UHGV virus genome: UHGV-0242533
DNA: 64,000 nt
Direction: 5' to 3' (one strand)
DNA from: a virus
Part shown: positions 1 to 39,799 of the stretch, one piece after another
Numbering within the stretch: position 1 is the first letter of the stretch
Layout of the letters: each line of letters starts with the position of its first letter
Translations under genes and position numbers: made by a program
The notes under the pieces: model-generated
Seen by the model: only the letters and a program-made list of their open reading frames with translations
What the model was told of the DNA's origin: nothing
Databases searched by the model: none

Positions 1-976
1 CACAGACACGTTTCCACGTATCAGGAATTTCGAATGGTTCACATTTAATTGTGTCATCCGATACATCATAAATCAAACCACTTCCTAACAATGGCATACC
101 TTTTGAACGCATTTCTAATTGCCACGCTGGAATACCTTCAGTCATATCTTTTATATCTTGGTCAGTGATATGTCCACCTAGGTCTGCATGAGCATCCCAC
201 CAAGAAGCATTCTGGAAATATAGAGAACCTGTGTTCTCATCCCCTTCACCTTTCATAAATTTATCTACCAGTTCAGTTAAACCGTTCTCTGGTGTAGCCG
301 TAATTGTAACTAGACCTTTAGTTGTGAGTGTACGTGTGACACACTGTGCGAATATAGCCATAGACTCGTATGGATCTTCTTCGTCTAACCAAATGTAGTC
401 AACTGTTGCACCCATCAATGTGTGTTCACCCTGTTGGGTTGAACGGAATTCTAATGTACTTAAACCGTCAAACTCTCCTCTTTCATTTTGATGTTTGATT
501 TGTACGATTTGAAGTTTGTTACCATCTCGTTCTATCGTGTCAATGACGATAGCATCACGAGGAATGACACCTGTCCCTAATAAATTTGTATCCTTTCCGA
601 TAGGTGTACCAAACAATTCCTTTTGCAATACTTTCCTTGTGGAATCCCCTGTAATACCAACTGCCCATGCTAAGATAGGTCTTTTAAATTTATATCCTGT
701 CCACCAAGTTGGGTAGCGACCTGTGACATGACAAGCAAACTCGTATGCCTCGCTATAAGATTTACCAACACGGTTCGCTGCACACAAGAATCTAAAGCGA
801 TGCTTCAATCCTGCTGCATAAAATTTCTTTTGGAAGTCATACGCCTTGAAAGACAAAATCCTATTATACTTCCTCCATTGGTCACGCTCTTTCAACATAT
901 TCAATAGTGCTTTCTTTTCATCTACACTAAGGTTGTTACCAGTTAGAGCTTCATAAATTTGTTTATCTAATGACAT
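1..976 (-). CDS. terminase large subunit, N-terminal ATPase part (partial; 3' end beyond window start)
   Basis: Reverse-strand ORF open from ATG at 976-974 to position 1 (absent from the ORF track because it has no stop in the window); translation MSLDKQIYEAL...; Walker A-like AANRVGKS and Walker B-like IWLDEEDP; GGAGG RBS upstream. Confidence 0.7.
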   Translation of the reverse strand, partial: MSLDKQIYEALTGNNLSVDEKKALLNMLKERDQWRKYNRILSFKAYDFQKKFYAAGLKHRFRFLCAANRVGKSYSEAYEFACHVTGRYPTWWTGYKFKRPILAWAVGITGDSTRKVLQKELFGTPIGKDTNLLGTGVIPRDAIVIDTIERDGNKLQIVQIKHQNERGEFDGLSTLEFRSTQQGEHTLMGATVDYIWLDEEDPYESMAIFAQCVTRTLTTKGLVTITATPENGLTELVDKFMKGEGDENTGSLYFQNASWWDAHADLGGHITDQDIKDMTEGIPAWQLEMRSKGMPLLGSGLIYDVSDDTIKCEPFEIPDTWKRVC

Positions 977-4792: not shown

Positions 4793-4896
4793 AAAGATTA
4801 GTTTGCAATACTAGTTCTAACGTACTATCTTTGATTTTCACCGTGATTGCTACTGCAATTGCTTACTATGTTCTTGTTGTTTTGGGAGTGTGACTT

Positions 4897-5160
4897 ATGA
4901 CTAAAGAGTACAGCTACACTATTCCCACCCGTAACTATGGCGATATTGACTTTTCTTACACTGACACATCTGACAAGTGTTTAATCTTGTTCGTTAGTGG
5001 TGATAATATTAATGCGGTGGAGTTTCCTGCTGTTGCTCTAATCATGGATGACGTTAAAGCTGGTCATTATCTAGCGCAACGTGGGGTTCTTCTGTCACTG
5101 GAAGAAATTAAATTGCTTAGAGTATCACTCTTTGAAGGTAAAGGCAACGATGAAGAATGA
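4897..5160 (+). CDS. hypothetical protein (87 aa)
   Basis: ORF in early operon. Confidence 0.55.
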   Translation: MTKEYSYTIPTRNYGDIDFSYTDTSDKCLILFVSGDNINAVEFPAVALIMDDVKAGHYLAQRGVLLSLEEIKLLRVSLFEGKGNDEE

Positions 5161-5446
5161 TTATTTTTGGCGGTGCTTGTTCATTGCTACAGTGGTGCTA
5201 TTCGTCGCTGATATGCTTTACTCTTACGTTCTTTAAGGCCTGAGTGTGCTGTTTTTGTTTGTGTTTGTCGTGGGCTTCATTTCTTTAAATTATTTACTGA
5301 TTGTTGCCGCTCTGGATATTCTTAATCTCAATACTAAAGGTTGATTGCTATGTGGTTTATTAAATTCTTAGGCTTAATCTTTCTTCTTTATTGTGCCGTA
5401 GTCATGCCTATGGTCATAATTTATCTGATTCTATAATCCTTCCTGT

Positions 5447-22116: not shown

Positions 22117-24147
22117 ATTTGTGGCATCGTATTAGCTGGCGGTAATCTGTCAAGCACTGATTTAGACGTATTCAACCAACTCTTTTATGCTGGAGTATTC
22201 CGAGGACAACATTCCTCCGGCATCTTTGGTCAGCGTAAAAGCACTAAGGAAGTCTTCACTTATAAAGAAGCTCTTCCTTCTTTCGCATTCATCCTACAAG
22301 ATGAGTACAAGAAGCATACCACTGGTGAAACAGCTTACACTGTAGCACCTTCATGGATTGTTGGTCACAGTCGTCATGCAACGAAAGGTGCAGTTAACGC
22401 CAAGAACGCCCATCCTTTCCAACATGGTAACATCACTCTGGTTCATAATGGAACCTTGATGGACCAAGACCTGTTACCTGACAGTAAAAACTTCGAGGTA
22501 GACAGTGAGAACATCTGCCACTCTATTAACACTATTGGTGCAGCAGAGACTATTCAAAAGCTGGATGGTGCTTTCACCTTAATCTGGCATGATGCTTCTG
22601 ATAACCGTCTTCATATCATCCGTAACGAAGAGCGTCCATTCCATCTCGCACGTTGTAACAGAGATTGGTTTGGTGCTTCTGAAGAAGACATGTTGATGTG
22701 GATTCTGAAGCGTTCTAGATCTCACAAGAACCGTATTGATGAGCATTTTGAATGTAAAGTTGGTACAGAATATATCTTTGATATGTCAAACAACAGCATG
22801 ACTCTGGTTGAAGAGGTCGCCCACGAGCTTCCGGTTTTTACGGTAATCAATCGTTGGGGCAATTACTACTCGAACAACTACAGCCAAAGCAACTATCAAA
22901 GTTCCTCAAAAAGCAATACAAGCAATCCTTACGACACGAAGCCGGGAGTGACAGCGGCAGACGTTCGTCGAAGAAACGCAGTGGTAAGTCAAAACAAAAT
23001 CGCAAGCGATCGAAACATTGATATTCGCCGTGATATGACTGTGGAAATCACACCACATGAGTTTGTTCCTTATGCAGCTGCTGGTGCTGTTCCTTCTCGT
23101 GGTAAGATGATCGGTTATATCTACGATGAGAAGTCTCAAGAGTATATCGAAGGTGATGTTCATAATGTAGACATTAAGGCTTATCAGGATGCACTGAAAG
23201 ACCCTAAAATTGTTTACCGTGGAACAGTATCCTGCATCTCCGAAGTTAATGCTATGGTTCGTTTAGTGATCACAGCAGGTCGTTTTGTTGACCCATCTCT
23301 GGAGAAAAAGGAGCCTGAGTCTACTACTGCTGACTTTGATGATGATATCCCTTTTGACATGAATGATAGTTTCGTCAACAAGAATGGCGTTACTATCACT
23401 CGTAAATTCTGGGAAGCACACTCTCATGGTGACTGTGGTGGTTGTGACAAACACATTGATTGGAAGGACGCACCTAAAGCAGTCTTCGCATATCAGTGCT
23501 ACTGGCATCCTGAATGTCTGGAAGGTTTGACTAAACCTAAAGAGGAAGAAGAGGAGGAAACTCCTATTGGTGTTTGTGAAATCTGCGGTGAAGTTAAAAC
23601 AGAGAATGAGTTCGATGATGAACTTAGTCGTCTTCGTGGTGAAGATATCTGTAAAGTCTGCGCTGTAGAAGTAAAGAAGAAAGTATCTAATGCTACGATC
23701 AAAGATGGTTATGTATGGATTAAAGCAACAGATACAACAAACGCCCGTCGTCCTGAATTTGCTTTACGTGTAACTGAAGATATGATTGGTCGTATGACTG
23801 TATTACCTTCCTCAGCGAAACAGACAGGCATCACTCTGGAGGATGTTGTTGATGCTTATGTTGAGAAACGTAGCAACAGTATTTTTGCAATCTCAACTAA
23901 GCCAAAAAAGGAGGAACCTGCTGAGAAAGCAGGTGTGTTTCCTGAATCACGAACAGCTCTCCGAAAAACTGTTGTCAGCTTCGACGGAAACCGAAGCACT
24001 GACTTCACCAAAGCCATGTGGTCAACCCTCGGATACTGCTCAGAGTGTTTTAAGCAGATTCCGTGGCGCGATGCTGAAAGTTGTACGCTTGGTTCTATGA
24101 ATCAAGTTTATTGTAATTCTCCTAAATGTTCATTGAATAGAGGTTAA
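22117..24147 (+). CDS. class-II (Ntn-type) glutamine amidotransferase domain fused to Cys-rich zinc-ribbon-like C-terminal region
   Basis: C-G-I-V at 22120 then FRGQHSSGIFG, HSRHATKG...NAHPF, HNGTL motifs; frame open only from 22114; the codon before Cys is ATT (22117), preceded by in-frame TAG and a 9-codon ATG ORF (22084); the ORF track shows only the 22456..24147 portion. Confidence 0.75.
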   Translation: MCGIVLAGGNLSSTDLDVFNQLFYAGVFRGQHSSGIFGQRKSTKEVFTYKEALPSFAFILQDEYKKHTTGETAYTVAPSWIVGHSRHATKGAVNAKNAHPFQHGNITLVHNGTLMDQDLLPDSKNFEVDSENICHSINTIGAAETIQKLDGAFTLIWHDASDNRLHIIRNEERPFHLARCNRDWFGASEEDMLMWILKRSRSHKNRIDEHFECKVGTEYIFDMSNNSMTLVEEVAHELPVFTVINRWGNYYSNNYSQSNYQSSSKSNTSNPYDTKPGVTAADVRRRNAVVSQNKIASDRNIDIRRDMTVEITPHEFVPYAAAGAVPSRGKMIGYIYDEKSQEYIEGDVHNVDIKAYQDALKDPKIVYRGTVSCISEVNAMVRLVITAGRFVDPSLEKKEPESTTADFDDDIPFDMNDSFVNKNGVTITRKFWEAHSHGDCGGCDKHIDWKDAPKAVFAYQCYWHPECLEGLTKPKEEEEEETPIGVCEICGEVKTENEFDDELSRLRGEDICKVCAVEVKKKVSNATIKDGYVWIKATDTTNARRPEFALRVTEDMIGRMTVLPSSAKQTGITLEDVVDAYVEKRSNSIFAISTKPKKEEPAEKAGVFPESRTALRKTVVSFDGNRSTDFTKAMWSTLGYCSECFKQIPWRDAESCTLGSMNQVYCNSPKCSLNRG

Positions 24148-24149
24148 GT

Positions 24150-24383
24150 ATGGAAATTCGTAAGATGATGCTGGATAATGTTGTAACTACTCGACGTATC
24201 CCGATGACGAGCACAGGATGTGACAACCTTCGTGCAATCCAGAAGTGGATGCAAGCTGGTATTGGTCAAGTACTTGAAACACAGGTTGAGGTTCCTTTCC
24301 CAACGGTGATCAACAACGTGCTTGCTGATTATGTAAAAATCAAAGGCATTAAGGTAGAACCTCATGTCAAATCTGGTTCCTAA
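24150..24383 (+). CDS. hypothetical protein (77 aa)
   Basis: ORF. Confidence 0.5.
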   Translation: MEIRKMMLDNVVTTRRIPMTSTGCDNLRAIQKWMQAGIGQVLETQVEVPFPTVINNVLADYVKIKGIKVEPHVKSGS

Positions 24384-24588
24384 GAAACCAAAGATCACTC
24401 TCCTACAGTATTACATGGGAGTTCATATCGAATTAGTAACGGAGCAGCGAAAGCTGTATCCGTTCGCTTTCGGTCTGATTGATGCACCATCCGATGAAGT
24501 AGAGAACGATGCGTTCAACGACTACTTCGAAATTGAAGCTCAGATTCAAAAAACTCGTAACGAAATTCTTAAACTTAAAGGTATCTAA
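24364..24588 (+). CDS. hypothetical protein (74 aa)
   Basis: ORF. Confidence 0.5.
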   Translation: MSNLVPKKPKITLLQYYMGVHIELVTEQRKLYPFAFGLIDAPSDEVENDAFNDYFEIEAQIQKTRNEILKLKGI

Positions 24589-24590
24589 CA

Positions 24591-25784
24591 ATGACTACTC
24601 GTATCCGTGTTCTTCCTTATGGTCCTTCTGATTCAGTTCGTGAACTTACTTCTGCAATTAACACTAAGATTCAGGAACTTCGCTTAAACGCTAACGTAAT
24701 GTCTCTGGTATCAGAAGGCTCTCGTTATCGTTCTCGAGTTGGTGATATTGTTGTCAACTATGGAAACCGTCGATACAATGATTCTTTCTTTGGTGGGGCA
24801 ACTGTATTGAACTCTGTGGTTGCCTTGAACCGAGCAGCTAATAAGATTGCAGCATTTAACGCATTGCGTTTAGCTGAAGTTAAAACTGTTGAATACACCA
24901 CTGATCGTGAATTAGCTCTGAACTGGAACCAGAACGAAATTGTTTACGAACGTGCAACATTAACTGGTCACTCTGGTGAAGGTATCACTGTTCGTCTTCC
25001 GACAGAAGGTGTTGCAGATGCCCCTCTATACACCAAAGGTATTCAAGGCCCACGTCGTGAATGGCGTGTTCATGTATTTGAAGGTGTTATCACTTACGTT
25101 CAGAAGAAGATTCGTCGTAATGGATACCGTGATCTGTCAACCTATCGTGAAGACATTCGCAATCACCATACTGGTTGGGTTTATTCCTCAAACTTCCAAG
25201 ATGCACCACCTCCTCAAGTATTGATTCAAGCTCACAAAGCTGTAGAAGCTCTTGGATTGAACTTTGGTGCTGTTGATCTAATAAGCAAAGTTTCTAACGC
25301 TTGGGTTCTGGAAGTAAATACTGCTCCTGGGCTGACTGGTACAACTCTGGAAACTTACACTCATAATATTGTTGAGTTTGTTAAGAGCTTCTCTGGAGTT
25401 GATCCTGATTATCGTGTTGCTTACGAACTGCCTGTTGAAGAAGTGGAAGAGTTTGCTGAATCAGCAGATGACGAGAACTTTGCATTGACAGCTGAACCAG
25501 TTGTTGAAGAGTCTTCGGAGCCTGTTCCTGAAACAATGCAAGTGGAAGAACAAGGGTTAGAGATCAACCCTGTCACCCGTCGTACTTTACGTCGTGGTTA
25601 TTACATCGCTAATATCAAGCACCCTGAGAATGGTTCAACTGTAGCAAGTAATGTGATCTTGTTCTTCTGTGGTCGTAACTTCTACCGCTCTGGGTGGAAC
25701 GCACCGATTAGTGATCGCCAGCTTGGTCGTGTGTTGCAGATTAACAGTCTTACTCTGAATGATGGCACTGTTGTAAACTACTAA
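24591..25784 (+). CDS. ATP-grasp ligase (RimK/glutathione-synthetase-like) with acidic C-terminal extension
   Basis: EWRVHVF and AVDLI...VLEVNTAPGL motifs. Confidence 0.7.
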   Translation: MTTRIRVLPYGPSDSVRELTSAINTKIQELRLNANVMSLVSEGSRYRSRVGDIVVNYGNRRYNDSFFGGATVLNSVVALNRAANKIAAFNALRLAEVKTVEYTTDRELALNWNQNEIVYERATLTGHSGEGITVRLPTEGVADAPLYTKGIQGPRREWRVHVFEGVITYVQKKIRRNGYRDLSTYREDIRNHHTGWVYSSNFQDAPPPQVLIQAHKAVEALGLNFGAVDLISKVSNAWVLEVNTAPGLTGTTLETYTHNIVEFVKSFSGVDPDYRVAYELPVEEVEEFAESADDENFALTAEPVVEESSEPVPETMQVEEQGLEINPVTRRTLRRGYYIANIKHPENGSTVASNVILFFCGRNFYRSGWNAPISDRQLGRVLQINSLTLNDGTVVNY

Positions 25785-25790
25785 GGATAT

Positions 25791-26039
25791 ATGGATATGT
25801 TTTCATTGGAAGATCTAGTACAAAATGGAATGATGGAACAAAAAGAGCCTCTTATTGTAGGCTCTCGTAAAGAGTTGCGTAAATTGTGCGAGGAGTGGGG
25901 TATTACTAATCAGCGAATGGTTGGTAATCAATTCTCTGCAATTGTAACTTTCCTAAAACGTGGTGATAAATACTCTATGGAATGTGTAGAACGTATCATC
26001 ACTGAAGCACAACAAGACAAAGGAGTAACATATCTATGA
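25791..26039 (+). CDS. hypothetical protein (82 aa)
   Basis: ORF. Confidence 0.5.
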   Translation: MDMFSLEDLVQNGMMEQKEPLIVGSRKELRKLCEEWGITNQRMVGNQFSAIVTFLKRGDKYSMECVERIITEAQQDKGVTYL

Positions 26040-26221
26040 ATAAGTATAAAGTTCTGTTTAAAGATACCAATGCCGCTGGTGAAATGCGAGCTATGGACCT
26101 AGATGCTGACATGTTTAACTTCTCTGATGGCAAAGTGGCCTTCTTTCAAGGAAGTGAAGCCGTTGCAGTGTTTGAGAGTGCAGCAATCTGTGGTGTAATC
26201 AAAATCTTTATTACAGAGTAA
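26036..26221 (+). CDS. hypothetical protein (61 aa)
   Basis: ORF. Confidence 0.45.
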   Translation: MNKYKVLFKDTNAAGEMRAMDLDADMFNFSDGKVAFFQGSEAVAVFESAAICGVIKIFITE

Positions 26222-26274
26222 TCTGCTTTAGCCTCTTCGAAAGAGGGGGCTAGTTTGGATAAACTGGAGAATAT

Positions 26275-26454
26275 ATGAAACTTTTTGATGAAAAACACAA
26301 AAAGCAAATGGAAGACAACTCTAAGAAGTTGGAATCCAATCTTCGTAAACGTGTAGCCCAAGGCTCGGATGGTTCTCTGTTCGGAAATATCGGATACTCT
26401 TTTGCCAAGAATCTTTTACATAGTATGGAAACCAGAAAAGTGATAAAGAAATAA
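26275..26454 (+). CDS. hypothetical protein (59 aa)
   Basis: Not in ORF track; ATG 26275 with GGAG RBS. Confidence 0.4.
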   Translation: MKLFDEKHKKQMEDNSKKLESNLRKRVAQGSDGSLFGNIGYSFAKNLLHSMETRKVIKK

Positions 26455-26513
26455 AACAGTTTTCTTTATCTACAACTCATGAACAAATTATTTAACATAG
26501 AAAGGTATTTAAA

Positions 26514-26933
26514 ATGTCAGAAGTAATTTACGTAGCAACTTATGGTTCTCTTCGTCGTGGTCAAGCTAACTATTTAGTTAATGATCGAGCTGGTGCTAAG
26601 TCTATTGGCGAGGGTTGGACTGAAGATAACTTCGATCTGTTCCGTTACGGTGGTTCCTACTTCCCGAGCATCTCTCTCGCACACAGCAATAGCAATAAGC
26701 CTGTTCGTGTAGAAGTGTTTGCTACTGACAAAGCAGGTCTGGAAGGTCCATATGACCGACTGGAAGGTTACAACAAACGTAGCCCTGAAGACAGCTTCTA
26801 TCAGCGTACTCAGATTGCTGTTAAGATGGACTCAGGTGAAACTGTTATCGCTTGGATTTATCACATTGACGAAGAACAAGATGTTCTGGTCGAATCTGGC
26901 GACTGGTCAGAGTATCTGAAAAGTGAATCTTGA
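26514..26933 (+). CDS. gamma-glutamyl cyclotransferase-like (AIG2/GGCT fold) protein
   Basis: N-terminal VATYGSLRRG motif. Confidence 0.65.
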   Translation: MSEVIYVATYGSLRRGQANYLVNDRAGAKSIGEGWTEDNFDLFRYGGSYFPSISLAHSNSNKPVRVEVFATDKAGLEGPYDRLEGYNKRSPEDSFYQRTQIAVKMDSGETVIAWIYHIDEEQDVLVESGDWSEYLKSES

Positions 26934-27152: not shown

Positions 27153-28640
27153 ATGTCAAAGATCATTTTGGGAGACACAGGTTGTAAGGAATGTATCTCT
27201 CATGGTCGTGATAAAACCCACAACCACATGATTCTCTTCCGTAACGAAGAGACAGGTGAGGAGTGGGGGAGTTGTAACCGTTGTGGGAATTACGAAGTGT
27301 TCGAAAAGGGCACTACACCTACTCCAAACGAGAAGAAAGAGCTATCCCCTGAAGAGTTAAGAGAAGTCTTAGACGATTGCTTAGAGCTTCCTCAGGGTGA
27401 ACTTACTCGACGTTTAATCCCTAAAGCCGTATCAGAGCGTTTTGAGTGTCGAATTGGTCTAAGTCAGACTGATGGTCAGACTCCAGACAGCTACTTCTTT
27501 CCTCGTGAACGTGATGGAAACATTGTCGGTTATGAGGTTAAGCTGCTTGACAGTAAGAAGTTCTATTACGTTGGCAGTGTGAAAGAAGCAGATTTATTTG
27601 GTATGGCACAGGCTCAGCGTGGAGATGTGTACAACAAGAAGCTGTTCATTTTTGAAGACCCGCTATCCTGTATGTCAGGTTTCCATGTCCTTACAGCTTT
27701 TACAAATGCAACAAACATTAAACCAGCATGTGTTTCTTTACCGTTCGGTGCAGGTTCAATCTCTTCTGTGTTGTCTCGTAATCGAGACTTCGTAAATGGT
27801 TTTGAGGAGGTTGTGCTCTGCATGGACAATGACGATGCAGGTGAGATAGCTTTAACAAAAGGTCGTTCTTTATTCCCTCATGTCAAGTTTGCTCGTATTC
27901 CTAAAGGAACCTTCCCATACAACGGTGTGGAGAAAGAGATTAAGGATGCGAATGACATGCTTCTGTCTGGTCGTGGTCAGGAGTTATTCAACATTCTCAA
28001 GTATTCAGCAAAGCGAGAATCTCCTGCTGGCGCTGTAACAATCTTTGATTGCCTTGATGATGCTCTGAAGAAAGCGGAGTGGGGTATTCCATATCCGTGG
28101 AAGACTCTGAATGAGATGACCTTTGGTATTCGATGGGGAGAGGTGGTAGCAATCGGTGGTGGTGTAGGTAGTGGTAAGACACTAATTGCTCACGAGCTGG
28201 TTGCTCATCTGTGCTTAGAGCATGGTTTTAATGGGGGTGGCTTCTTCTTGGAAGAGAAGGTAGGCATGTCTGTTAAGAACATCGCTGGTAAGTCAGCATC
28301 AATTCCTTTCCACCGACCTGATGTTGAATATGATGAGGAGGATTTGCGTAATGAAGCACTTCGTTATGCAGACAAATTCTTCTTGTATGACAACTTCGGA
28401 CAGAATGAATGGGAAGACATTAAACAGTGTATCCGTTTCTGGGTAGTTGAAAACCAGTGTAAGTTCATCATCCTTGATAACATTACCGCTCTGGTATCTC
28501 ATTTAACACCTTCAGAGATTAACACTGAAATCAGTAAGATTGCTTCAGAGCTTGCTGGTATGTGTAAAGAGTTAGACTTTACCGCTTTCGTTCTATCTCA
28601 CCTTAATGCTCCGGCAGGTGGTGCTCCTCATGAAGAGGGT
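27153..28640 (+). CDS. DNA primase-helicase (T7 gp4-like), exon 1
   Basis: Zn finger C-x2-C...C-x2-C, primase region, Walker A GGGVGSGKT, SHLN...HEEG motif; the ORF hits a stop (28644-28646) inside the conserved helicase domain. Confidence 0.8.
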
Positions 28641-29436
28641 AAGTAACAAGCCCTCTATAAATTCTGTGAACTCAGGGGAACTCTAGAACAGACAATCCTG
28701 AGCTAAGCCTAGTAATAACCCTCCTATAAGGAGGTAATATGAAACAGTATCTTGGAAAATATACGGTTCATAAAGATGGACGAATAATCAGTCACTATAA
28801 CGGGAAGCCTTTAACCATCTCTCTTTACAAACCAAATAAACAGGGTAAGAAGATTGTTTATCCTAGAGTTAGGCTCTGTATTGACGGGAAAGGTAAATGG
28901 TTTGCACTACACAGGATTATAGCTGAATGCTATATCCCAAATCCAGAAAATCTTCCACATATAAACCATAAAGATGGAAACAGATTGAATAACTCTGTTG
29001 AAAATCTTGAATGGTGCAGTCATCTACAGAATATACGGCATGCCCAAGAACACAACCTCAACCCTAAAGGAGAGAGGCAAGGTATTGCAGTTGCAACTGA
29101 AGAGATTGTAAGGAGAATTAGAAGTTTAAGAAGGGGTGGTATGTCTTATAAAGATATCGCTGAGCTTGTTAAACTTAAGAGAAGAACAGTCGAAGCTATT
29201 GGTTCTTATCAAAACTGGAAACACATAGAGTGAGTGGTTATTACTAGGAAAGTGCAACGACTAGGGTGGGCGTAAGCCCGAAGTACAGCCAAGCGGTGTC
29301 ATTAACATTGACTTAAATGGAAGCGCAGAACCTTCAAATTGAAGTGAAGATATAGTCTGGTCTACATGGGGACATGTAGCAGTTCAGAGATAGAACCTGA
29401 ACGGGGTGTGATTAGCGATCACATCTGAACACAACG
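28641..29436 (+). mobile_element. group I self-splicing intron (about 0.8 kb) carrying an HNH homing-endonuclease ORF
   Basis: Host gene frame shifts by +1 across the insert; 3' region has AAGATATAGTC (near-canonical group I S element), GACTA/TAGTC P7 candidates and three stable hairpins; exon 1 ends in T, insert ends in G; boundaries approximate (+/- 6 nt). Confidence 0.6.
28739..29233 (+). CDS. HNH homing endonuclease (intron-encoded)
   Basis: H-x-H...N...N-x-x-x-N-L-x-W...H-x-x-N pattern (INHKDGNRLNNSVENLEWCSHLQN); strong RBS AAGGAGG. Confidence 0.8.
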   Translation: MKQYLGKYTVHKDGRIISHYNGKPLTISLYKPNKQGKKIVYPRVRLCIDGKGKWFALHRIIAECYIPNPENLPHINHKDGNRLNNSVENLEWCSHLQNIRHAQEHNLNPKGERQGIAVATEEIVRRIRSLRRGGMSYKDIAELVKLKRRTVEAIGSYQNWKHIE

Positions 29437-29739
29437 GGACAGGTACGTGAAGTACAGTTCACTGGCTCTCGTTCTCTTATGCGTTGGTGTCAGTGTATCA
29501 TTGGCTTTGAGCGTGACAAGCAAGCTGACGGCTTAGCTAAGAACCTCTCAGTCATTCGATTACTGAAAGAACGTAACTACGGTCAGACAGGTGTTTGTTA
29601 TACTAAGTATATCAGTGAAACCGGTAGACTTGTAGAAAGGGAAGACTTTGAAGTTGATGAAGATAATCCATTCGTTTTAACTAACGGAGAGGATGCAGCT
29701 TCTCTCGTCAACCAAGCAGATGGAGCTTCACCGTGGTAA
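29437..29739 (+). CDS. DNA primase-helicase, exon 2 (helicase C-terminal motifs)
   Basis: VQFTGSRS...[10 protein letters not shown] resumes the helicase motifs as recalled from T7 gp4; no in-frame start codon before these residues. Confidence 0.6.
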
Positions 29740-30290
29740 AGAAAAAGAAGAAAGTGTTTGCATTCGATATCGAGAGTAATGCACTGTACGATGACATAAC
29801 TAAAGTATGGTGTATTTATATCTTTGATGTTGAAACTGGTGAAAGGTGGGGCTATCGGCCTCACCAAATTGAAGATGGGATTCATAAACTTACAGAAGCA
29901 GATGTGCTCGTGGGTCACAATATTATTGACTTCGACCTTTGTGCTCTGAAGAAAATGTATCCCAATCTAATTGAATATCGTTTTAACGTCTTTGACACTT
30001 TATGTCTTAGTCGATATCTTAAACCTGACCGTATTGGTGACAGTCCTGAGTATCCGAAAGGCGACCCTAGACATGGCCCAAGAGGTCATGGCTTGAAGCA
30101 ATGGGGTGAGTTCTTAGGGGAACTTAAAGGTGATTACGGTGAGCAAGAGGAAGCATGGGATGCTTTCACTGAAGATATGTTTACTTATTGTGAACAGGAC
30201 GTTAACTTAACTGTTAAGGTTTATCTTTTCTTGTGTGAACTCACGGGATTTGACCCTTACGACCCACCTTCATTATATTGGAAAATGTAA
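29733..30290 (+). CDS. DNA polymerase I family, 3'-5' exonuclease domain as a separate gene
   Basis: FDIESNAL (Exo I), HNIIDFD (Exo II), YCEQDV (Exo III); own GTG start and stop. Confidence 0.8.
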
Positions 30291-30291
30291 A

Positions 30292-31662
30292 ATGATTGTT
30301 ATCCCGATTAACCGAATTGAAGATAAGGTTGCTCAACAACCTGATATTGCTGTTGGTCGTCACTTCATTGAACAGTTGATTAACAACAACTTGGTTCCAG
30401 ACGGTATCTGTCCCATCATTACTGGTGGGGCTGTTCGAGATGCTGTGCTTAATAACACAGCTCCACATGACATTGATATCTTTATTGTCAGAGGACAAAC
30501 ACCAAGAACTCAAAACACATTCATCCCAACTGATCGTTGGCAAGCTCTTGGAAGAGAGATTGAAAGTAATGTGAAGGAATGGCTAGAGTCACAAGATATC
30601 GAATATGCATCCCTTCTTGCTGAAGCTACAAACGAATCCTATGCTGGGGGTTCTCAATTAACATTCACTGATATTATTGAGTTTCAGTGGAATGGAACCC
30701 GCATTCAATTCATGTTTAATTATCCTACTTCTATTGAAGAGGTATTGGATAATTTTCCTATGATGTGCCGTGGTGCGATAACTCTTGACAGCTTATTCAT
30801 GACCCCTCATGGATATTTAGCTATGACCGCTCCTTGCCCTGTGGTTGTTTCTAGTCGTGAAATCAGATACGTTCACAAGAAGTGGCCTAATTCACAGGTA
30901 TTAAGATTCTCCGCTCCATCTGTTGCATATCAATATATGGCACAAACTCGATACCTTCCTACACCTCAACCAGTTAGTCATCTGGTCAACGAACGAGGTC
31001 AGGTTGCTCCTGTTGAGGATACAACAAGTGCTCAATATTGTGTTAACCGAGACATGAGTCGATTCTTTGGAATCCCTTACGAAGAAATTCAGTTAATGTC
31101 AAGTGTTCATGGCTCTGGTCAGATTCGTGCGTATTGGTCTGAAGGGTTGACGAATTTAACAACTAATACAGGAGGGGATCTCCTTGGTCGAGAAGAGGAA
31201 CCTAACCGACACAATGCAATTGAAGGGGTGTTTGTAGCCCCTGCAATGCGTCGAGCACAAGAGTCACGAAGAGTAAGCCCTACTCGTAGAACATCTTTTG
31301 AAGAGGCTCTTGGTGTTACTAGCGATTCATTTGAGCAGTGGTTGTCTAGACGTTCTAATGGTCTGTCAAATGGTTTGACTGCTAGCCGTCACCAGTTCTC
31401 TGGTCAGGGTTTTGCTGTTGGTGATATTGACCAAGCTGCTCGTGTTATATGGACTGATGAAGCATCTGCTCAAGATGTGGTTAATAATCTCGCCGATCTT
31501 GATATTCCTTCTCATGGCGAGCTAGCTGAGACTGTCAGTCGTAGTCTCGCTGATCGCTTTGTTGCTGATAACCCTGAAGTATTAGAGCCTCAAACCAATA
31601 CAATTAGTGTTGCTGACGTAGTTGGTGATGGATTCTCTTTTTACGCACGAACAAATAACTAA
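30292..31662 (+). CDS. Pol-beta-superfamily nucleotidyltransferase with CCA-adding-enzyme/poly(A)-polymerase-like head motif
   Basis: GGAVRDAVLNNTAPHDIDIF matches the GG-x-VRD...P-x-D-x-D signature; downstream 400 aa unrecognised. Confidence 0.6.
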   Translation: MIVIPINRIEDKVAQQPDIAVGRHFIEQLINNNLVPDGICPIITGGAVRDAVLNNTAPHDIDIFIVRGQTPRTQNTFIPTDRWQALGREIESNVKEWLESQDIEYASLLAEATNESYAGGSQLTFTDIIEFQWNGTRIQFMFNYPTSIEEVLDNFPMMCRGAITLDSLFMTPHGYLAMTAPCPVVVSSREIRYVHKKWPNSQVLRFSAPSVAYQYMAQTRYLPTPQPVSHLVNERGQVAPVEDTTSAQYCVNRDMSRFFGIPYEEIQLMSSVHGSGQIRAYWSEGLTNLTTNTGGDLLGREEEPNRHNAIEGVFVAPAMRRAQESRRVSPTRRTSFEEALGVTSDSFEQWLSRRSNGLSNGLTASRHQFSGQGFAVGDIDQAARVIWTDEASAQDVVNNLADLDIPSHGELAETVSRSLADRFVADNPEVLEPQTNTISVADVVGDGFSFYARTNN

Positions 31663-31671
31663 GGAATAAGA

Positions 31672-32205
31672 ATGAGTTTACTAGGAAGTGTTGAACTGCA
31701 TGATGTAATTGACAATGGCTATCTGGATGCGGAGCATAAGTATGTTAACGCTGCTAGTGTGGATATCCGTATTGGTGATACTATCCTTGTTGAAGAACAG
31801 GCTGATGGCATCGTTGATATTGATGCGAAAGAGAATCTTCAGTGGAAGGAAGTAAAGATTCCTGAAGAGGGTTTGGTTATCACTCCGGGTCAGTTCTTCT
31901 TGGCTCACTCTATGGAAGAGTTTAATCTTCCAGATAACATCTCAAGTCTGTTTGTCCTGCGTTCGTCTATGGCTCGTTGTGGTTTGAACCACCTTCACGC
32001 CGGTTGGGCAGATGCAGGATTTAATAGCAGTAAGCTGACATTTGAATTCCATAACGTAACCAAGCACCACAGTTTACGAGTTCGTGCTGGTATGCGTGTA
32101 GGTCAGATGGTAATGTTTGAGCACTCTCATGCAGGGGAACACTCCTATGCAGTGAAGGGTCGTTATAATAACTCTGAAGGTGTAGTTGCATCTAAAGGTG
32201 TGTAA
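31672..32205 (+). CDS. dCTP deaminase / dUTPase-superfamily protein
   Basis: LRSSMARCGL and ADAGFNS motifs. Confidence 0.65.
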   Translation: MSLLGSVELHDVIDNGYLDAEHKYVNAASVDIRIGDTILVEEQADGIVDIDAKENLQWKEVKIPEEGLVITPGQFFLAHSMEEFNLPDNISSLFVLRSSMARCGLNHLHAGWADAGFNSSKLTFEFHNVTKHHSLRVRAGMRVGQMVMFEHSHAGEHSYAVKGRYNNSEGVVASKGV

Positions 32206-34318: not shown

Positions 34319-34975
34319 ATGAATGAACAACTACAAGCAACATTAATCGAAGCTATGGGAAGCGATCGTAGCGTAGTAAACGCAGCTCGAGTTTCCTTTG
34401 GCGTAACCCGTGAAGGTGATTTAAATGAACGTGATGAACGTCTCATCAACTTCCTCGCAAGAGAGAAGCATGTTACCCCATTCCGACATCCGCAAGTCAG
34501 TTTCCGATGCAAAGCACCTATCGCAATTGCGAGACAGTTGGGCAAGCATCAGGTTGGATTCTCGTGGAACGAAATGTCCCGGCGGTATAAAGATGGAGAA
34601 GTTGAAGTCTTCATCCCTAAAGAGATTTTTGCGAGACCTTCGGACCTCCATGCAGGTTCAGGGACACAGCTCATCGACGGAGAACGAGCTGAAGCATTAA
34701 TGTTGATTAACGATGCATATGAAGCTTCTCTAGCAGCATATGACAAGTTGATTGAGTTTATTGCACCAGAGCAAGCTCGATTTGTTCTTCCTCAGGGAAT
34801 GATTACTGAGTGGGTGTGGACTGGTTCTTTGTATGGATGGTTTGAGTTGTGCCGTCAACGACTCTCCTCTCATGCTCAGTATGAAGTTCGAGTGTTTGCT
34901 AAATCCTTAGATGAAGAAATGGCTAAACTCTACCCAATCTCATGGGCAGCTCTGAAGAAAACCTTGGAGAATTAA
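34319..34975 (+). CDS. thyX: flavin-dependent thymidylate synthase ThyX-like protein (variant signature KHQ-x7-S-x-RY)
   Basis: FRHP...QLGKHQVGFSWNEMSRRY and RFVLPQG...YEVR regions. Confidence 0.65.
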   Translation: MNEQLQATLIEAMGSDRSVVNAARVSFGVTREGDLNERDERLINFLAREKHVTPFRHPQVSFRCKAPIAIARQLGKHQVGFSWNEMSRRYKDGEVEVFIPKEIFARPSDLHAGSGTQLIDGERAEALMLINDAYEASLAAYDKLIEFIAPEQARFVLPQGMITEWVWTGSLYGWFELCRQRLSSHAQYEVRVFAKSLDEEMAKLYPISWAALKKTLEN

Positions 34976-37954: not shown

Positions 37955-39799
37955 GTGAGCAACCCGGACGCTCTTCCATTTTTGACAGAGATGACTGTCG
38001 CTGATATAATCTCTAAGCAAGCAAAGCACGGAGTGAGTTTCAACCGAAGAAATGCTCGGTGGTATGTTCACCTCCTTAAAGAGATTATTGTTAATATTGA
38101 CAGAGAGTTGATTCCTCTCTTACCTAAGATGAGATTAGATGGCTCTACTTACATGAAGCCGTTTAAGAAGTCTGGAGCTTTACAGAAGTGGCCTCAAGCC
38201 TATTGTGATAGGGTTGGGCTGAAGAGAGAAGATATTGGTGGAGCTTTCACCTGTGTCGAATACGTAGACTTTGACCCATCGAAAGATGCACGAGTTAAAG
38301 AAGCTCTTATGGATGAGGGCTTTCTTCCTCCAGAGTTTAACGTATCTAAGAAGCCTTGGAATACTTTCGAAATTAAGAAAGATATGAGAAAGTATGGAAC
38401 ATACCAAGCATGGTATACTGCTTGGATGCGAGGTAATGCTAAGCAAAAACAGACAGCCGAGATGGTTGACGCTGATATTAAGAAGTTCTTAGAAAAGCAT
38501 TTCAGGTTTAAGACTAAGAATTACATGAAGGCTTACGTATTTGGTTTGGGGTTGAACCCTAATCGCCGTAATCCTGTAACGTTTGATGAGATTAAGAAAG
38601 CACTAGCCACATCAAACAAGTGGCCTACAGCTCCTACAAACCTCGAGGAGACTCTTGAAGAAGGGTTAGGGGGTGAGCTAGGGAGTGTCGGAAGTTTGCT
38701 TAAGAAACGCGTTGTAGCGGCTCACAGGCTAGGTCTTATCAGTGGACTCATAGCAAAGGAGCGCGAAGATGGTAAACTTTCGGCAGAAGCTAACAGCTGC
38801 GCTACGCCGACTTTTCGATTCAAACATCGTATCGTGGTTAATATTCCCTCCCGTGGTCTGTTTGGTCACGAGTGTCGCAGTTTGTTTGAGTCTGACTATA
38901 ACTCAGACAGTGATCACTCTCGTCCTTTCGTTATTACTAACGTTGTTCCTGATGGTTGTTATATACGAAAGGGTACTAACGTAATTTACGAGAAAGGTAA
39001 GCCGGGGAAGAAAGACAAACCTGTAGGTGCTTACAAATATTACATACCCGCTGGTAAAGAAGTATTCTTAGGGTATGATGGTTCTGGACTTGAACTTCGT
39101 ATGCTCGCTCACTACCTCATCAAAGAGTGTAGAGATATGCTTGCTGAAGCAATCGAAGAGAACAATCCAGCTAAGAAAGCTCTGGCAGAACGCGGTCTAG
39201 CTTCTGCTATTATGTATCGTGATATTCTCCTTGAAGGTGATATCCACTCCCACAACCAGAAACTTGCTGGTCTTCCTACTCGTGACAATGCTAAGACATT
39301 TATCTATGCATTCAACTACGGTGCTGGTGATGCTAAGCTTGGTTCAATTGTAGGTGGTGGGGCTGACGAAGGTTCAGTGATGCGAGCACGTTTCTTAGCA
39401 GAGAACCCATGTATTGCAATCCTCATTGATCGCATGACAGAGAAAGCTGCTCAAGGATACTTGATTGGTGTTGATGGTCGTAAGATTACAATGAGACGAG
39501 ATGCCACTGGTAAAGTTATGGTTCATAAAGCCCTTAATACACTCCTGCAATGTGCTGGTGCTGTTGTTATGAAATATGCTATGATGTTCCTTAACAAGTG
39601 GATTGAGAAGGATGGGGTTCGTTGTGCTAAGGTAATTGATATGCACGATGAAGGCCAGTTCTCAGTGAATCGTAATGATGTACAGAAACTCAAAGAGCAC
39701 ACTGAGCTTTGTGTTAAGAAGGCTGGTGAGTACTTGAACATGGAATGTCCTCTGGCTTCTGATTGTCAGATTGGATTAAATTGGATGCATACGCACTAA
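37955..39799 (+). CDS. DNA polymerase I family, polymerase domain as a separate gene
   Basis: Motif A DGSGLELR, motif B RDNAKTFIYAFNYGAG, motif C HDEGQF; GTG start with AAAGGAG RBS. Confidence 0.85.
   Translation: MSNPDALPFLTEMTVADIISKQAKHGVSFNRRNARWYVHLLKEIIVNIDRELIPLLPKMRLDGSTYMKPFKKSGALQKWPQAYCDRVGLKREDIGGAFTCVEYVDFDPSKDARVKEALMDEGFLPPEFNVSKKPWNTFEIKKDMRKYGTYQAWYTAWMRGNAKQKQTAEMVDADIKKFLEKHFRFKTKNYMKAYVFGLGLNPNRRNPVTFDEIKKALATSNKWPTAPTNLEETLEEGLGGELGSVGSLLKKRVVAAHRLGLISGLIAKEREDGKLSAEANSCATPTFRFKHRIVVNIPSRGLFGHECRSLFESDYNSDSDHSRPFVITNVVPDGCYIRKGTNVIYEKGKPGKKDKPVGAYKYYIPAGKEVFLGYDGSGLELRMLAHYLIKECRDMLAEAIEENNPAKKALAERGLASAIMYRDILLEGDIHSHNQKLAGLPTRDNAKTFIYAFNYGAGDAKLGSIVGGGADEGSVMRARFLAENPCIAILIDRMTEKAAQGYLIGVDGRKITMRRDATGKVMVHKALNTLLQCAGAVVMKYAMMFLNKWIEKDGVRCAKVIDMHDEGQFSVNRNDVQKLKEHTELCVKKAGEYLNMECPLASDCQIGLNWMHTH

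What the first reader, a model, noticed from the sequence alone, without database searches (positions are those of the whole stretch)
30292..31662. CCA-adding-enzyme-like nucleotidyltransferase in a tRNA-carrying phage
The head motif GGAVRD...P-x-D-x-D is nearly identical to class-II tRNA nucleotidyltransferase/poly(A) polymerase, but the remaining 400 residues are unrecognisable. Together with the phage tRNA-Arg(UCU) this suggests tRNA 3'-end repair or maturation, possibly against host tRNA-targeting nucleases, or another NTase role (tailing RNA, nucleotidylating a protein).
Basis: partly seen in the sequence, partly recalled or inferred. Interest (0 to 1): 0.6.

Follow-up and report, generated by a model that had tools for sequence, protein, structure and literature searches.

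The report
Gad2-like phage nucleotidyltransferase, not CCA-adding
The gene is a real, already annotated core gene of phiEco32-like coliphages whose enzyme domain only distantly resembles tRNA CCA-adding enzymes and is closer to Gad2, a phage enzyme that disarms the bacterial Gabija defence, so a tRNA-repair role is unlikely and its true job is still untested.

The parts
30292..31662 (+). NTase gene (456 aa plus stop), the homolog of phiEco32 gp73 / SU10 CDS74 and a member of phrog_12715
   Evidence: (E 3.6e-250, full length)
30292..31011 (+). Residues 1-240: conserved Pol-beta-type NTase domain, a class II head-like fold with Gad2-like sequence motifs
30424..30477 (+). Motif A: G45-G46-A-V-R49-D50 ... 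P58-H-D60-I-D62-I-F64, with the two metal-binding aspartates. G45, G46, R49, D50, D60, D62 and F64 are invariant in 25 diverse family members
30670..30675 (+). D127-I128 on the strand at residues 125-133. Position 127 is acidic in 25/25 members, which makes it the best candidate for the third catalytic carboxylate. E104, which aligns with the CCA-enzyme glutamate, is acidic in only 16/25
   Evidence: the assignment is an inference
30754..30774 (+). F155-P156-M-M-C159-R-G161. This aligns with Gad2 FDFTVCMG and, through Gad2, with CCA motif B (RRDxTINA). The RRD is absent and P156 is invariant
30838..30888 (+). P183-VVV-S187-S-R189-E190-IR-Y193-VH-K196-K197-W-P199. This aligns with Gad2 PIVSLLRVQKYTDKEY and, through Gad2, with the CCA motif D region. 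No EDxxR is present. Position 190 is acidic in 25/25 members, and Y193 and K197 are invariant
31051..31161 (+). Residues 254-290: two short conserved motifs beyond the domain, h-x-x-x-F259-[NG]-[IL]-P and [LI]-x-x-x-[WYF]282-[STR]-x-G-[LR]. They may be an interaction motif
   Evidence: F/L at 259 in 23/25; aromatic at 282 in 21/25
31162..31659 (+). Residues 291-456: variable tail rich in indels and predicted disordered. It is not shared with other subgroups of the family
   Evidence: (pLDDT <50)
29733..30290 (+). Upstream neighbour: family A DNA polymerase 3'-5' exonuclease subunit. Its stop codon lies 1 nt before the NTase ATG
   Evidence: PF01612, E 3e-8
31672..32205 (+). Downstream neighbour: dCTP deaminase-like protein (DCD)
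   Evidence: PF22769, E 3.5e-34
27153..29739 (+). DnaB-type primase/helicase gene, here split by an intron. It is the first gene of the conserved block helicase - exo - NTase - DCD

Best explanation
The gene encodes an active Pol-beta-superfamily nucleotidyltransferase. It belongs to a small subfamily confined to phiEco32-like phages, and that subfamily lies within the Gad2-like group of phage 'mini class II head-domain' NTases. It is not a CCA-adding enzyme.

Shown here:
- It keeps the GG/DxD metal-binding centre and a universally acidic residue on the neighbouring strand.
- It has lost the ribose- and base-templating motifs (RRD, EDxxR) and the tRNA-binding domains of CCA enzymes.
- It carries a lineage-specific disordered tail with short conserved motifs.
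- It sits, tightly packed, between the DNA polymerase exonuclease subunit and dCTP deaminase in every relative examined.

Inferred:
- It is made together with the replication proteins.
- It transfers a nucleotide from an NTP or dNTP to an acceptor, most probably a nucleic-acid 3'-OH, as every characterised class II-type enzyme does.
- Like its only functionally tested relative Gad2, which neutralises the Gabija DNA-targeting defence, it protects replicating phage DNA from host nuclease-based immunity.
- The tail probably tethers it to a partner protein.
For: Identity and distribution:
- Full-length match to phrog_12715, and a homolog of phiEco32 gp73.
- Only 40 proteins with E<=1e-3 among 1.84 billion representatives.
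- Every context examined, down to 24-33% identity, reads DnaB helicase - exo - NTase - DCD.

Likely activity:
- G45, G46, R49, D50, D60, D62, Y117, Q139, P156, Y193 and K197 are invariant, and positions 127 and 190 are always acidic, across 25 diverse members.
- The SU10 ortholog was detected by mass spectrometry among early gene products (PMC4281155).

Link to Gad2:
- A precomputed Pfam PF26128 'Gad2' hit (weak) is on record for the Kuravirus orthologs, and an unmarked one for the bridging protein P0077.
- hhalign of the target family against a Gad2 alignment gives 98.2%, E 4e-14, 113 columns.
- Against validated-type Gad2 sequences alone it gives 73.7%, E 2.9e-5, collinear over 124 columns including the strand and helix motifs.
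- The bridging proteins P0078, P0081 and P0076 score 49-69 bits to the Gad2-proper HMM and 22-44 bits to the target HMM.
- Against a CCA profile the result is only 94.5%, E 8e-8, 77 columns, and the CCA HMM gives <=15.6 bits.

Gad2 function: knockout sensitises phage SPbetaL7 to Gabija, and a homolog expressed in trans blocks Gabija (preprint 10.1101/2023.05.01.538930). This was reproduced in S. aureus.

Recurrent placement: Gad2-like mini-NTases lie beside primase/helicase and DNA polymerase genes in unrelated phages, namely Bordetella BB8, Klebsiella FKP3 and Pseudomonas Emajogi.

Phenotype: Gordonclarkvirinae are unusually resistant to host immunity with no known mechanism (PMC11990801).
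Against: - No experiment addresses this protein or any member of its subfamily.
- The mechanism and substrate of Gad2 are unknown (PMC12904381), so 'works like Gad2' transfers a phenotype, not a chemistry.
- The link to experimentally validated Gad2 is remote: 73.7% by hhalign, and <=20.7 bits by HMM when bridging sequences are left out.
- The 98% figure uses an alignment that contains proteins picked because they hit the target profile.
- Gad2's invariant F-D is F-P here, and Gad2's folded C-terminal domain is absent.
- Strict core-gene status and fixed synteny over deep divergence are atypical of anti-defence genes, which tend to be patchy. They fit a housekeeping role in replication or nucleotide metabolism at least as well.
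- Synteny in a conserved genome backbone is weak evidence for a functional link.
Confidence: 0.5

Rival explanations
1. tRNA CCA-adding or tRNA 3'-end repair enzyme. It would rebuild the CCA of the phage tRNA-Arg or of host tRNAs damaged by defence nucleases that cut tRNA tails.
For: - Motif A is of the class II type (GGAVRD...DID), and the best solved-structure matches are CCA/A-adding/poly(A) enzymes.
- Defences that cut tRNA 3' tails exist, for example Cas12a3 (PMC12851939).
- Jumbo phages do carry CCA enzymes (PMC7824862).
Against: - RRD and EDxxR are absent.
- There is no body or tail domain, and the C-terminal half is disordered.
- Pfam PF01743 scores below threshold, and NCBIfam gives no match.
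- hhalign covers only motif A to the third-carboxylate region.
- The phage tRNA encodes its own CCA, and kuraviruses have 0-1 tRNAs.
- Real phage CCA enzymes are 33-54% identical to E. coli Cca, and none of those listed is a Kuravirus.
Confidence: 0.08
2. Part of a covalent DNA-modification pathway together with the adjacent dCTP deaminase, as suggested in the BASEL-II paper. The NTase would make or attach a modified nucleotide, or add non-templated nucleotides to DNA, and so explain the RM resistance of Gordonclarkvirinae.
For: - This is published speculation (PMC11990801).
- The NTase-DCD adjacency is invariant down to 24% identity.
- RM resistance is not explained by site avoidance for the systems tested: the 64-kb window holds 12 EcoRI, 27 EcoRV, 9 EcoKI and 101 EcoP1I sites.
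- Loss of RRD, the ribose-2'-OH-reading motif of class II enzymes (established knowledge), would be compatible with dNTP use.
- TdT and Pol beta/mu are among the structural hits.
Against: - No known DNA-modification pathway uses a class II-type NTase.
- The phage also encodes ThyX (34319..34975). DCD + ThyX is an ordinary dTTP-supply route, and that argues against dU-DNA.
- Many kuravirus genomes have been sequenced with standard methods without any report of modification. This rests on my own knowledge and was not tested.
- Synteny may reflect only a conserved backbone.
Confidence: 0.15
3. An RNA 3'-tailing enzyme, a poly(A)-polymerase-like activity as in E. coli PcnB. It would mark host or phage transcripts, or RNA primers, for decay or processing during the switch to replication.
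Confidence: 0.12
4. A catalytically dead scaffold of the replisome. The NTase fold would be kept only as a structural module, and the tail would be the functional part.
For: The canonical third carboxylate position that aligns with CCA enzymes (E104) is acidic in only 16/25 members. The conserved short motifs and aromatic C-termini in the tail suggest protein-protein contacts.
Against: G45, G46, R49, D50, D60 and D62 are invariant, and positions 127 and 190 are always acidic, over sequences as low as 24% identical. That pattern is typical of a working active site.
Confidence: 0.04

Closest known systems
Gad2 (Gabija anti-defence 2; Pfam PF26128), Bacillus phage SPbetaL7 ORF_159 and its Brevibacillus laterosporus prophage homolog
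   Same: Both are phage-encoded NTases with an N-terminal class II-like head. They share a collinear set of motifs: (I/V)AGG...(N/H)D(I/V)D(I/V)(Y/F)F; the h-Q-h-(M/I) strand; F-(D/P)-x-x-x-C-x-G-A; and P-h-h-S-x-x-R-x-x-x-Y-x-x-K. hhalign gives 98.2%, or 73.7% against Gad2-proper sequences alone. A weak precomputed Pfam Gad2 hit is on record for the orthologs.
   Different: Gad2 has GGAITS where this protein has GGAVRD, and an invariant F-D where this family has F-P. Gad2 has a folded C-terminal domain of ~170 aa, and this protein has a disordered tail. Gad2 lies in a variable anti-defence locus of temperate SPbeta phages, and this gene is a fixed core gene of the replication block of virulent podophages. 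Anti-Gabija activity has been shown only for Gad2.
Class II tRNA nucleotidyltransferases (CCA-, CC- and A-adding enzymes; Pfam PF01743 head)
   Different: There is no RRD (motif B), no EDxxR (motif D), no motif E, and no body or tail domain. Pfam scores below the gathering threshold (20.5 against 23 bits). The CCA HMM gives <=15.6 bits.
E. coli poly(A) polymerase I (PcnB, PDB 3aql)
Stand-alone 'PolyA polymerase head' mini-NTases of podophages and other phages (phrog_1614; for example Pseudomonas phage LKD16 Q0E649, Caulobacter phage Cd1, Bordetella phage BB8 p30, Klebsiella phage FKP3, Pseudomonas phage Emajogi gp22)
   Same: The single-domain fold is the same (Foldseek E 1e-8..1e-4; phrog_1614 E 7e-8). 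They are usually placed beside primase/helicase and DNA polymerase genes. Some are annotated as Gad2 family.
   Different: They are 167-254 aa with no tail. This subfamily carries a 60-270 aa lineage-specific extension and has its own invariant residues (Y117, Q139, P156, Y193, K197). None has a demonstrated function.
Streptococcus pneumoniae NP_344798.1 (PDB 2la3), a bacterial protein consisting only of a CCA-enzyme head domain
   Different: It is bacterial and of unknown function, and its similarity is much lower than that of the full class II enzymes.

Membership tests
Class II CCA-adding enzyme (tRNA nucleotidyltransferase) | Motif A: GGxVRD followed by DxD (metal-binding carboxylates) | tested here: met
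   G45-GAVRD50 and D60-I-D62 are present, and all are invariant in 25 family members.
Class II CCA-adding enzyme (tRNA nucleotidyltransferase) | Third catalytic carboxylate on the strand that follows (E in hEhxxxR) | tested here: inconclusive
   hhalign aligns E104 with the CCA glutamate, but E104 is acidic in only 16/25 members. Position 127 on the next strand is acidic in 25/25. No coordinates were available to check the geometry.
Class II CCA-adding enzyme (tRNA nucleotidyltransferase) | Motif B: RRD (ribose and triphosphate recognition) | tested here: not met
   RRD is invariant in the CCA alignment A8. The corresponding segment here is N-F-P-M-M-C with P156 invariant. There is no RRD anywhere in residues 1-240.
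Class II CCA-adding enzyme (tRNA nucleotidyltransferase) | Motif D: EDxxR (protein template for C and A) | tested here: not met
   EDPLR is invariant in A8. The corresponding segment here is P-VVV-SS-R-E-IR-Y with no ED and no templating Arg.
Class II CCA-adding enzyme (tRNA nucleotidyltransferase) | Alpha-helical body and tail domains that hold the tRNA | tested here: not met
   Residues 242-420 and 431-456 have pLDDT <50. There is no Pfam, NCBIfam or PDB sequence match. The region is not conserved between subgroups.
Class II CCA-adding enzyme (tRNA nucleotidyltransferase) | Score above the curated threshold of Pfam PF01743 | tested here: not met
   20.5 bits against a gathering score of 23. 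Orthologs score 18.8-21.9 bits.
Class II CCA-adding enzyme (tRNA nucleotidyltransferase) | CCA addition to tRNA 3' ends | not testable with these tools
   This needs an in vitro assay.
Gad2 family (Pfam PF26128) | Profile-level sequence match to the family over the NTase domain | tested here: met
   hhalign gives 98.2%, E 4e-14, 113 columns, and 73.7%, E 2.9e-5, 124 columns against Gad2-proper sequences alone. The Gad2+bridging HMM gives 50.9 bits to the window protein. A precomputed Pfam 'Gad2 (weak)' hit is on record for ortholog P0004. Caveats: the local Pfam copy does not report PF26128, so the curated threshold could not be checked, and the window protein itself has no precomputed hit on record.
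Gad2 family (Pfam PF26128) | Family-invariant residues of the Gad2 alignment (A-G-G, D-x-D, F-D) | tested here: inconclusive
   AGG/GG and DxD are kept. Gad2's invariant F105-D106 corresponds to F155-P156 here, with Pro invariant.
Gad2 family (Pfam PF26128) | Folded C-terminal domain of the ~400 aa Gad2 proteins | tested here: not met
   Alignments stop at about Gad2 residue 163, and the tail here is predicted disordered. Many proteins that hit PF26128 also lack that domain (for example P0077, 222 aa).
Gad2 family (Pfam PF26128) | Inhibition of Gabija defence | not testable with these tools
   Shown only for SPbetaL7 Gad2 and a Brevibacillus homolog and in S. aureus.
Pol beta superfamily nucleotidyltransferase fold | Minimal NTase fold with hG[GS] and [DE]h[DE]h on adjacent elements | tested here: met

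The most novel reading that the evidence does not exclude
The enzyme is a replisome-tethered nucleotidyltransferase that chemically alters the phage's own DNA during replication. It could do this by non-templated 3'-end tailing or capping of the linear genome and its replication intermediates, or by a step in a base or nucleotide modification made with the neighbouring dCTP deaminase. That would be the unexplained cause of the broad resistance of Gordonclarkvirinae to restriction-modification and to DNA-end-sensing defences such as Gabija. It would also reveal the still unknown mechanism of Gad2-type anti-defence enzymes.
Probability: 0.12. Interest if true: 0.8.

Novelty: new member of a known kind. 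Interest (0 to 1): 0.4.

Why it matters
Phages of this group (Kuravirus and relatives) are common, are used in therapy studies, and are strikingly insensitive to restriction systems for no known reason (PMC11990801). Their one conserved NTase has until now carried a misleading 'CCA-adding enzyme' label. Tying it to the Gad2 family does two things. It removes a wrong functional expectation (tRNA repair). It also points to a tractable E. coli model, the BASEL phages Bas86-91 on K-12, for working out how Gad2-type nucleotidyltransferases defeat DNA-targeting immunity, which a 2026 review still lists as unknown (PMC12904381). The gene itself is already annotated and the link is remote, so the gain is a better hypothesis, not a discovery.

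Tried and rejected
- Direct sequence search against PDB gave only chance hits.
- NCBIfam and PADLOC gave nothing.
- The word-indexed homolog search with a profile returned only 7 proteins and missed the known Suseptimavirus homologs. I used the exhaustive search in its place.
- hhalign of the family against single sequences (E. coli Cca; SPbetaL7 Gad2) aligned only motif A. Family profiles were needed.
- The first structure prediction, full length with a 7-sequence alignment, was poor (pLDDT 52.8). A domain-only model with 29 sequences was good.
- I tested whether the tail is a basic RNA-binding tail. In the window protein it is net acidic (20 K/R against 32 D/E), and the charge is not consistent across members, so I rejected this.
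- I tested whether restriction-site avoidance explains the RM resistance. EcoRI, EcoRV, EcoKI and EcoP1I sites are present in normal numbers, so I rejected this for those systems.
- Literature searches for in vitro restriction digests of kuravirus DNA found nothing usable. The phiEco32 genome paper (PMC2587145) and the Nature version of the Gad2 paper are not held.
- No model coordinates were accessible, so I could not measure the active-site geometry (D60/D62/D127) or make a residue-level superposition on CCA enzymes.
- Minus-strand ORFs inside the gene (100, 44 and 49 aa) have no support and were set aside.

Full report
**What is there.** The window is a phiEco32-like podophage (Kuravirus, Gordonclarkvirinae). 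A 4-kb stretch around the finding is 90-95% identical at the DNA level to Shigella phage SGF2, Escherichia phage Paul and about 70 other records. The ORF listed as 30235..31662 almost certainly starts at the ATG at 30292. That ATG lies one base after the TAA of the upstream gene, and more than 40 homologs begin MI(V/K)IP. The product has 456 residues. It matches phrog_12715 'nucleotidyltransferase' end to end (E 3.6e-250) and is the homolog of phiEco32 gp73. [quoted passage not shown] The SU10 paper lists the ortholog under that name among early gene products detected by mass spectrometry (PMC4281155).

**Anatomy.**
- Within Kuravirus the first ~300 residues are nearly invariant, and the rest varies and has indels.
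- Against the Suseptimavirus- and Bas89-type homologs (29-31% identity), only residues 1-~205 align well.
- A full-length AlphaFold model was poor. A model of residues 1-245 built on 29 diverse sequences was confident (pLDDT 88.2, pTM 0.82).
- Residues 242-420 and 431-456 have pLDDT below 50 and no Pfam, NCBIfam or PDB match.
- Across 25 members as divergent as 24% identity, G45, G46, R49, D50, D60, D62, F64, Y117, I128, Q139, P156, Y193 and K197 are invariant, and positions 127 and 190 are always Asp or Glu. This is the signature of a working active site.
- Just beyond the domain there are two short conserved motifs (residues 254-262 and 278-286), and many members end in aromatic residues. 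I read this as a tethering tail. That is an inference.

**How far the family reaches.** HMMER read all 1.84 billion representative proteins and found only 40 with E<=1e-3. About 30 of these are true family members of 274-482 aa. Every genomic context I fetched, from Kuravirus to metagenomic relatives at 24-33% identity, has the same order: DnaB-type primase/helicase, family A polymerase 3'-5' exonuclease subunit, this NTase, dCTP deaminase-like protein. It is usually followed by a Dps/ferritin-like protein, thioredoxin and ThyX. The window's own neighbours were confirmed with Pfam. So this is a lineage-specific core gene in the replication and nucleotide-metabolism block.

- In an alignment of E. 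coli Cca with five viral CCA enzymes, RRD (motif B) and EDPLR (motif D) are invariant. The target has neither.
- Chained profile alignments place F155-P156-MMC opposite RRDxTIN, and P183...R189-E-IR-Y193 opposite EDPLRxLRxxRF.
- hhalign against the CCA profile covers only motif A to the third-carboxylate region (94.5%, E 8e-8, 77 columns).
- A CCA HMM gives at most 15.6 bits, and Pfam PolyA_pol is below its threshold (20.5 against 23 bits).
- There is no body or tail domain.
- The tRNA-Arg(UCU) gene at 13283..13359 ends ...ACGGTGC-G-CCA, so its CCA is encoded.
- Kuraviruses carry 0-1 tRNAs (PMC6563267).
- Genuine phage CCA enzymes are plentiful and easy to find (423 records at 33-54% identity to E. 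coli Cca), and none of those listed is a Kuravirus.

The tRNA-repair reading is therefore unlikely. I give it about 0.08.

**The closer relative is Gad2.** The precomputed Pfam column of the homolog table showed PF26128 for most Kuravirus orthologs. The context tool names it 'Gad2'. The mark is '(weak)' for ortholog P0004 and for P0082, and unmarked (E<=1e-5) for P0077, a 222-aa protein that also hits the target profile. The local Pfam copy never reports this model, so I tested the link independently.

I took the sequences of SPbetaL7 Gad2, the experimentally active Brevibacillus homolog and other Gad2 homologs from the supplementary tables of the Gad2 preprint.
- A Gad2 alignment that included the bridging proteins gave hhalign 98.2%, E 4e-14 over 113 columns.
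- That alignment is biased, because the bridging proteins were found with the target profile. I therefore repeated the comparison with Gad2-proper sequences only. The result was 73.7%, E 2.9e-5, collinear over 124 columns and including the h-Q-h-M strand, the F-x-x-x-x-C segment and the P-h-h-S-x-x-R-x-x-x-Y-x-x-K helix.
- The bridging proteins P0081, P0078 and P0076 score 49-69 bits with the Gad2-proper HMM and 22-44 bits with the target HMM, so transitive homology is sound.
- Gad2 and CCA enzymes are themselves related (95.4%, 142 columns).

The picture is a Gad2-like clade of phage mini-NTases derived from the class II head, with the phiEco32-lineage proteins as a distinct subfamily. The differences from Gad2 are GGAVRD in place of GGAITS, F-P in place of the invariant F-D, and a disordered tail in place of Gad2's folded C-terminal domain.

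**What Gad2 tells us and what it does not.** Deleting gad2 makes SPbetaL7 sensitive to Gabija. A homolog expressed in trans abolishes Gabija defence. AlphaFold predicted an NTase domain (preprint 10.1101/2023.05.01.538930). Inhibition of a staphylococcal Gabija by Gad2 was reported independently. A February 2026 review still lists Gad2's mechanism as unknown (PMC12904381). The homology therefore transfers a phenotype class (enzymatic counter-defence against a DNA-targeting system), not a substrate.

**Context in other phages.** The structural neighbours in BFVD are 167-254 aa stand-alone 'PolyA polymerase head' NTases of many podophages. In Bordetella phage BB8 such a gene lies between primase/helicase and DNA polymerase. 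In Klebsiella phage FKP3 it follows primase/helicase and DNA polymerase. In Pseudomonas phage Emajogi gp22, which is annotated in some of its homologs' phages as Gad2 family and is toxic when overexpressed, lies next to the primase/helicase gp23. The repeated placement beside replication genes in unrelated lineages suggests action during DNA replication. This is an inference.

**The published rival.** The BASEL-II paper notes that Gordonclarkvirinae resist RM systems without any known modification or inhibitor. It points to the dCTP deaminase + NTase pair as a possible DNA-modification route, 'most simply' dU for T (PMC11990801). I find that sites for the tested enzymes are not avoided in the window (EcoRI 12, EcoRV 27, EcoKI 9, EcoP1I 101), so the resistance does need an explanation. 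The presence of ThyX argues against dU-DNA, and no known modification pathway uses this kind of NTase. I keep this reading at about 0.15. The more radical version (DNA-end tailing or modification by a replisome-tethered NTase, which would also explain Gad2) is my 'novel case' at about 0.12.

**Verdict.** The CCA/tRNA interpretation is not supported. The gene is a known, annotated, lineage-specific core gene. What is new here is the evidence-based reassignment from 'CCA-adding-like' to 'Gad2-like', together with the list of residues that define the subfamily. The best explanation is an active Gad2-like nucleotidyltransferase made with the replication proteins and acting on a nucleic-acid end or another acceptor to protect the replicating phage from host nuclease-based immunity. 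I hold the classification with fair confidence (about 0.85) and the function with modest confidence (about 0.45). Core-gene behaviour and fixed synteny fit a housekeeping role about as well. The novelty class is a new member of a known kind, and I score interest at 0.4.

Noticed in passing
window 28641..29436 (HNH ORF 28739..29233), inside the primase/helicase gene 27153..29739: The DnaB-type primase/helicase gene is interrupted. Exon 1 (to ~28640) is 100% identical in protein to phiEco32 gp75 residues 1-496, and exon 2 resumes at ~29437. The ~795-nt insert carries an HNH_3 endonuclease ORF and gives Rfam group I intron hits (29097-29379, 34.6 bits, E 9e-7, below the gathering score of 50; and 28672-28748, 16.6 bits). 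It is absent from the closest relatives, because the megablast match starts only at 29437. It is likely a mobile group I intron with a homing endonuclease. Splice sites were not mapped.
   Followed up: partly
window 13283..13359 (+): The tRNA-Arg(UCU) gene has its 3' CCA encoded in the genome (...ACGGTGC G CCA aat) and one G-U pair in the acceptor stem. It therefore does not need CCA synthesis to mature.
   Followed up: yes
whole window: Some short palindromes are strongly avoided while others occur at normal frequency. CCWGG (Dcm) occurs 3 times. GATC occurs 133 times against 237-287 expected. CTGCAG and GAGCTC occur 0 times against 10-16 expected. 6-mer palindromes total 687 against 810 (Markov) or 1077 (mononucleotide) expected. 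EcoRI (12), EcoRV (27), HindIII (29) and EcoKI (9) sites are not depleted.
   Followed up: partly
window 29733..30290 and 37955..39799 (+): The family A DNA polymerase is split into a separate 185-aa 3'-5' exonuclease subunit (PF01612) and a 614-aa polymerase subunit (PF00476) encoded about 7.7 kb apart. The NTase, DCD, Dps-like and ThyX genes lie between them.
   Followed up: partly
window 22456..26933 (+); also L004, L006, L009: Upstream of the replication block, all relatives down to ~25% identity conserve a set of metabolic genes of unclear purpose: an AsnB-like glutamine amidotransferase (GATase_6/7), DUF7195, an 'ATP-grasp' protein of ~400 aa (no Pfam hit in the window copy) and a gamma-glutamyl cyclotransferase-like GGACT protein. 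It could be a small-molecule or modification pathway. I did not study it.
   Followed up: no
window 31051..31161 and the C-terminus 31630..31659; family alignment A5: The otherwise variable tail of the NTase family keeps two short linear motifs (h-x-x-x-F-[NG]-[IL]-P and [LI]-x-x-x-[WYF]-[STR]-x-G-[LR]). It often ends in aromatic residues (FSF, WQW, WTF, WDW, YDF). This is reminiscent of the C-terminal aromatic tails that dock replisome proteins in T7, which is a recollection and not a test.
   Followed up: partly
L002 (Bas89) 184..675 and 4834..5343; L015 6998..7365: Free-standing HNH endonuclease genes are inserted at different places in the same replication block in other Gordonclarkvirinae. 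This matches the BASEL remark that the locus is syntenic 'besides homing endonuclease insertions'.
   Followed up: no
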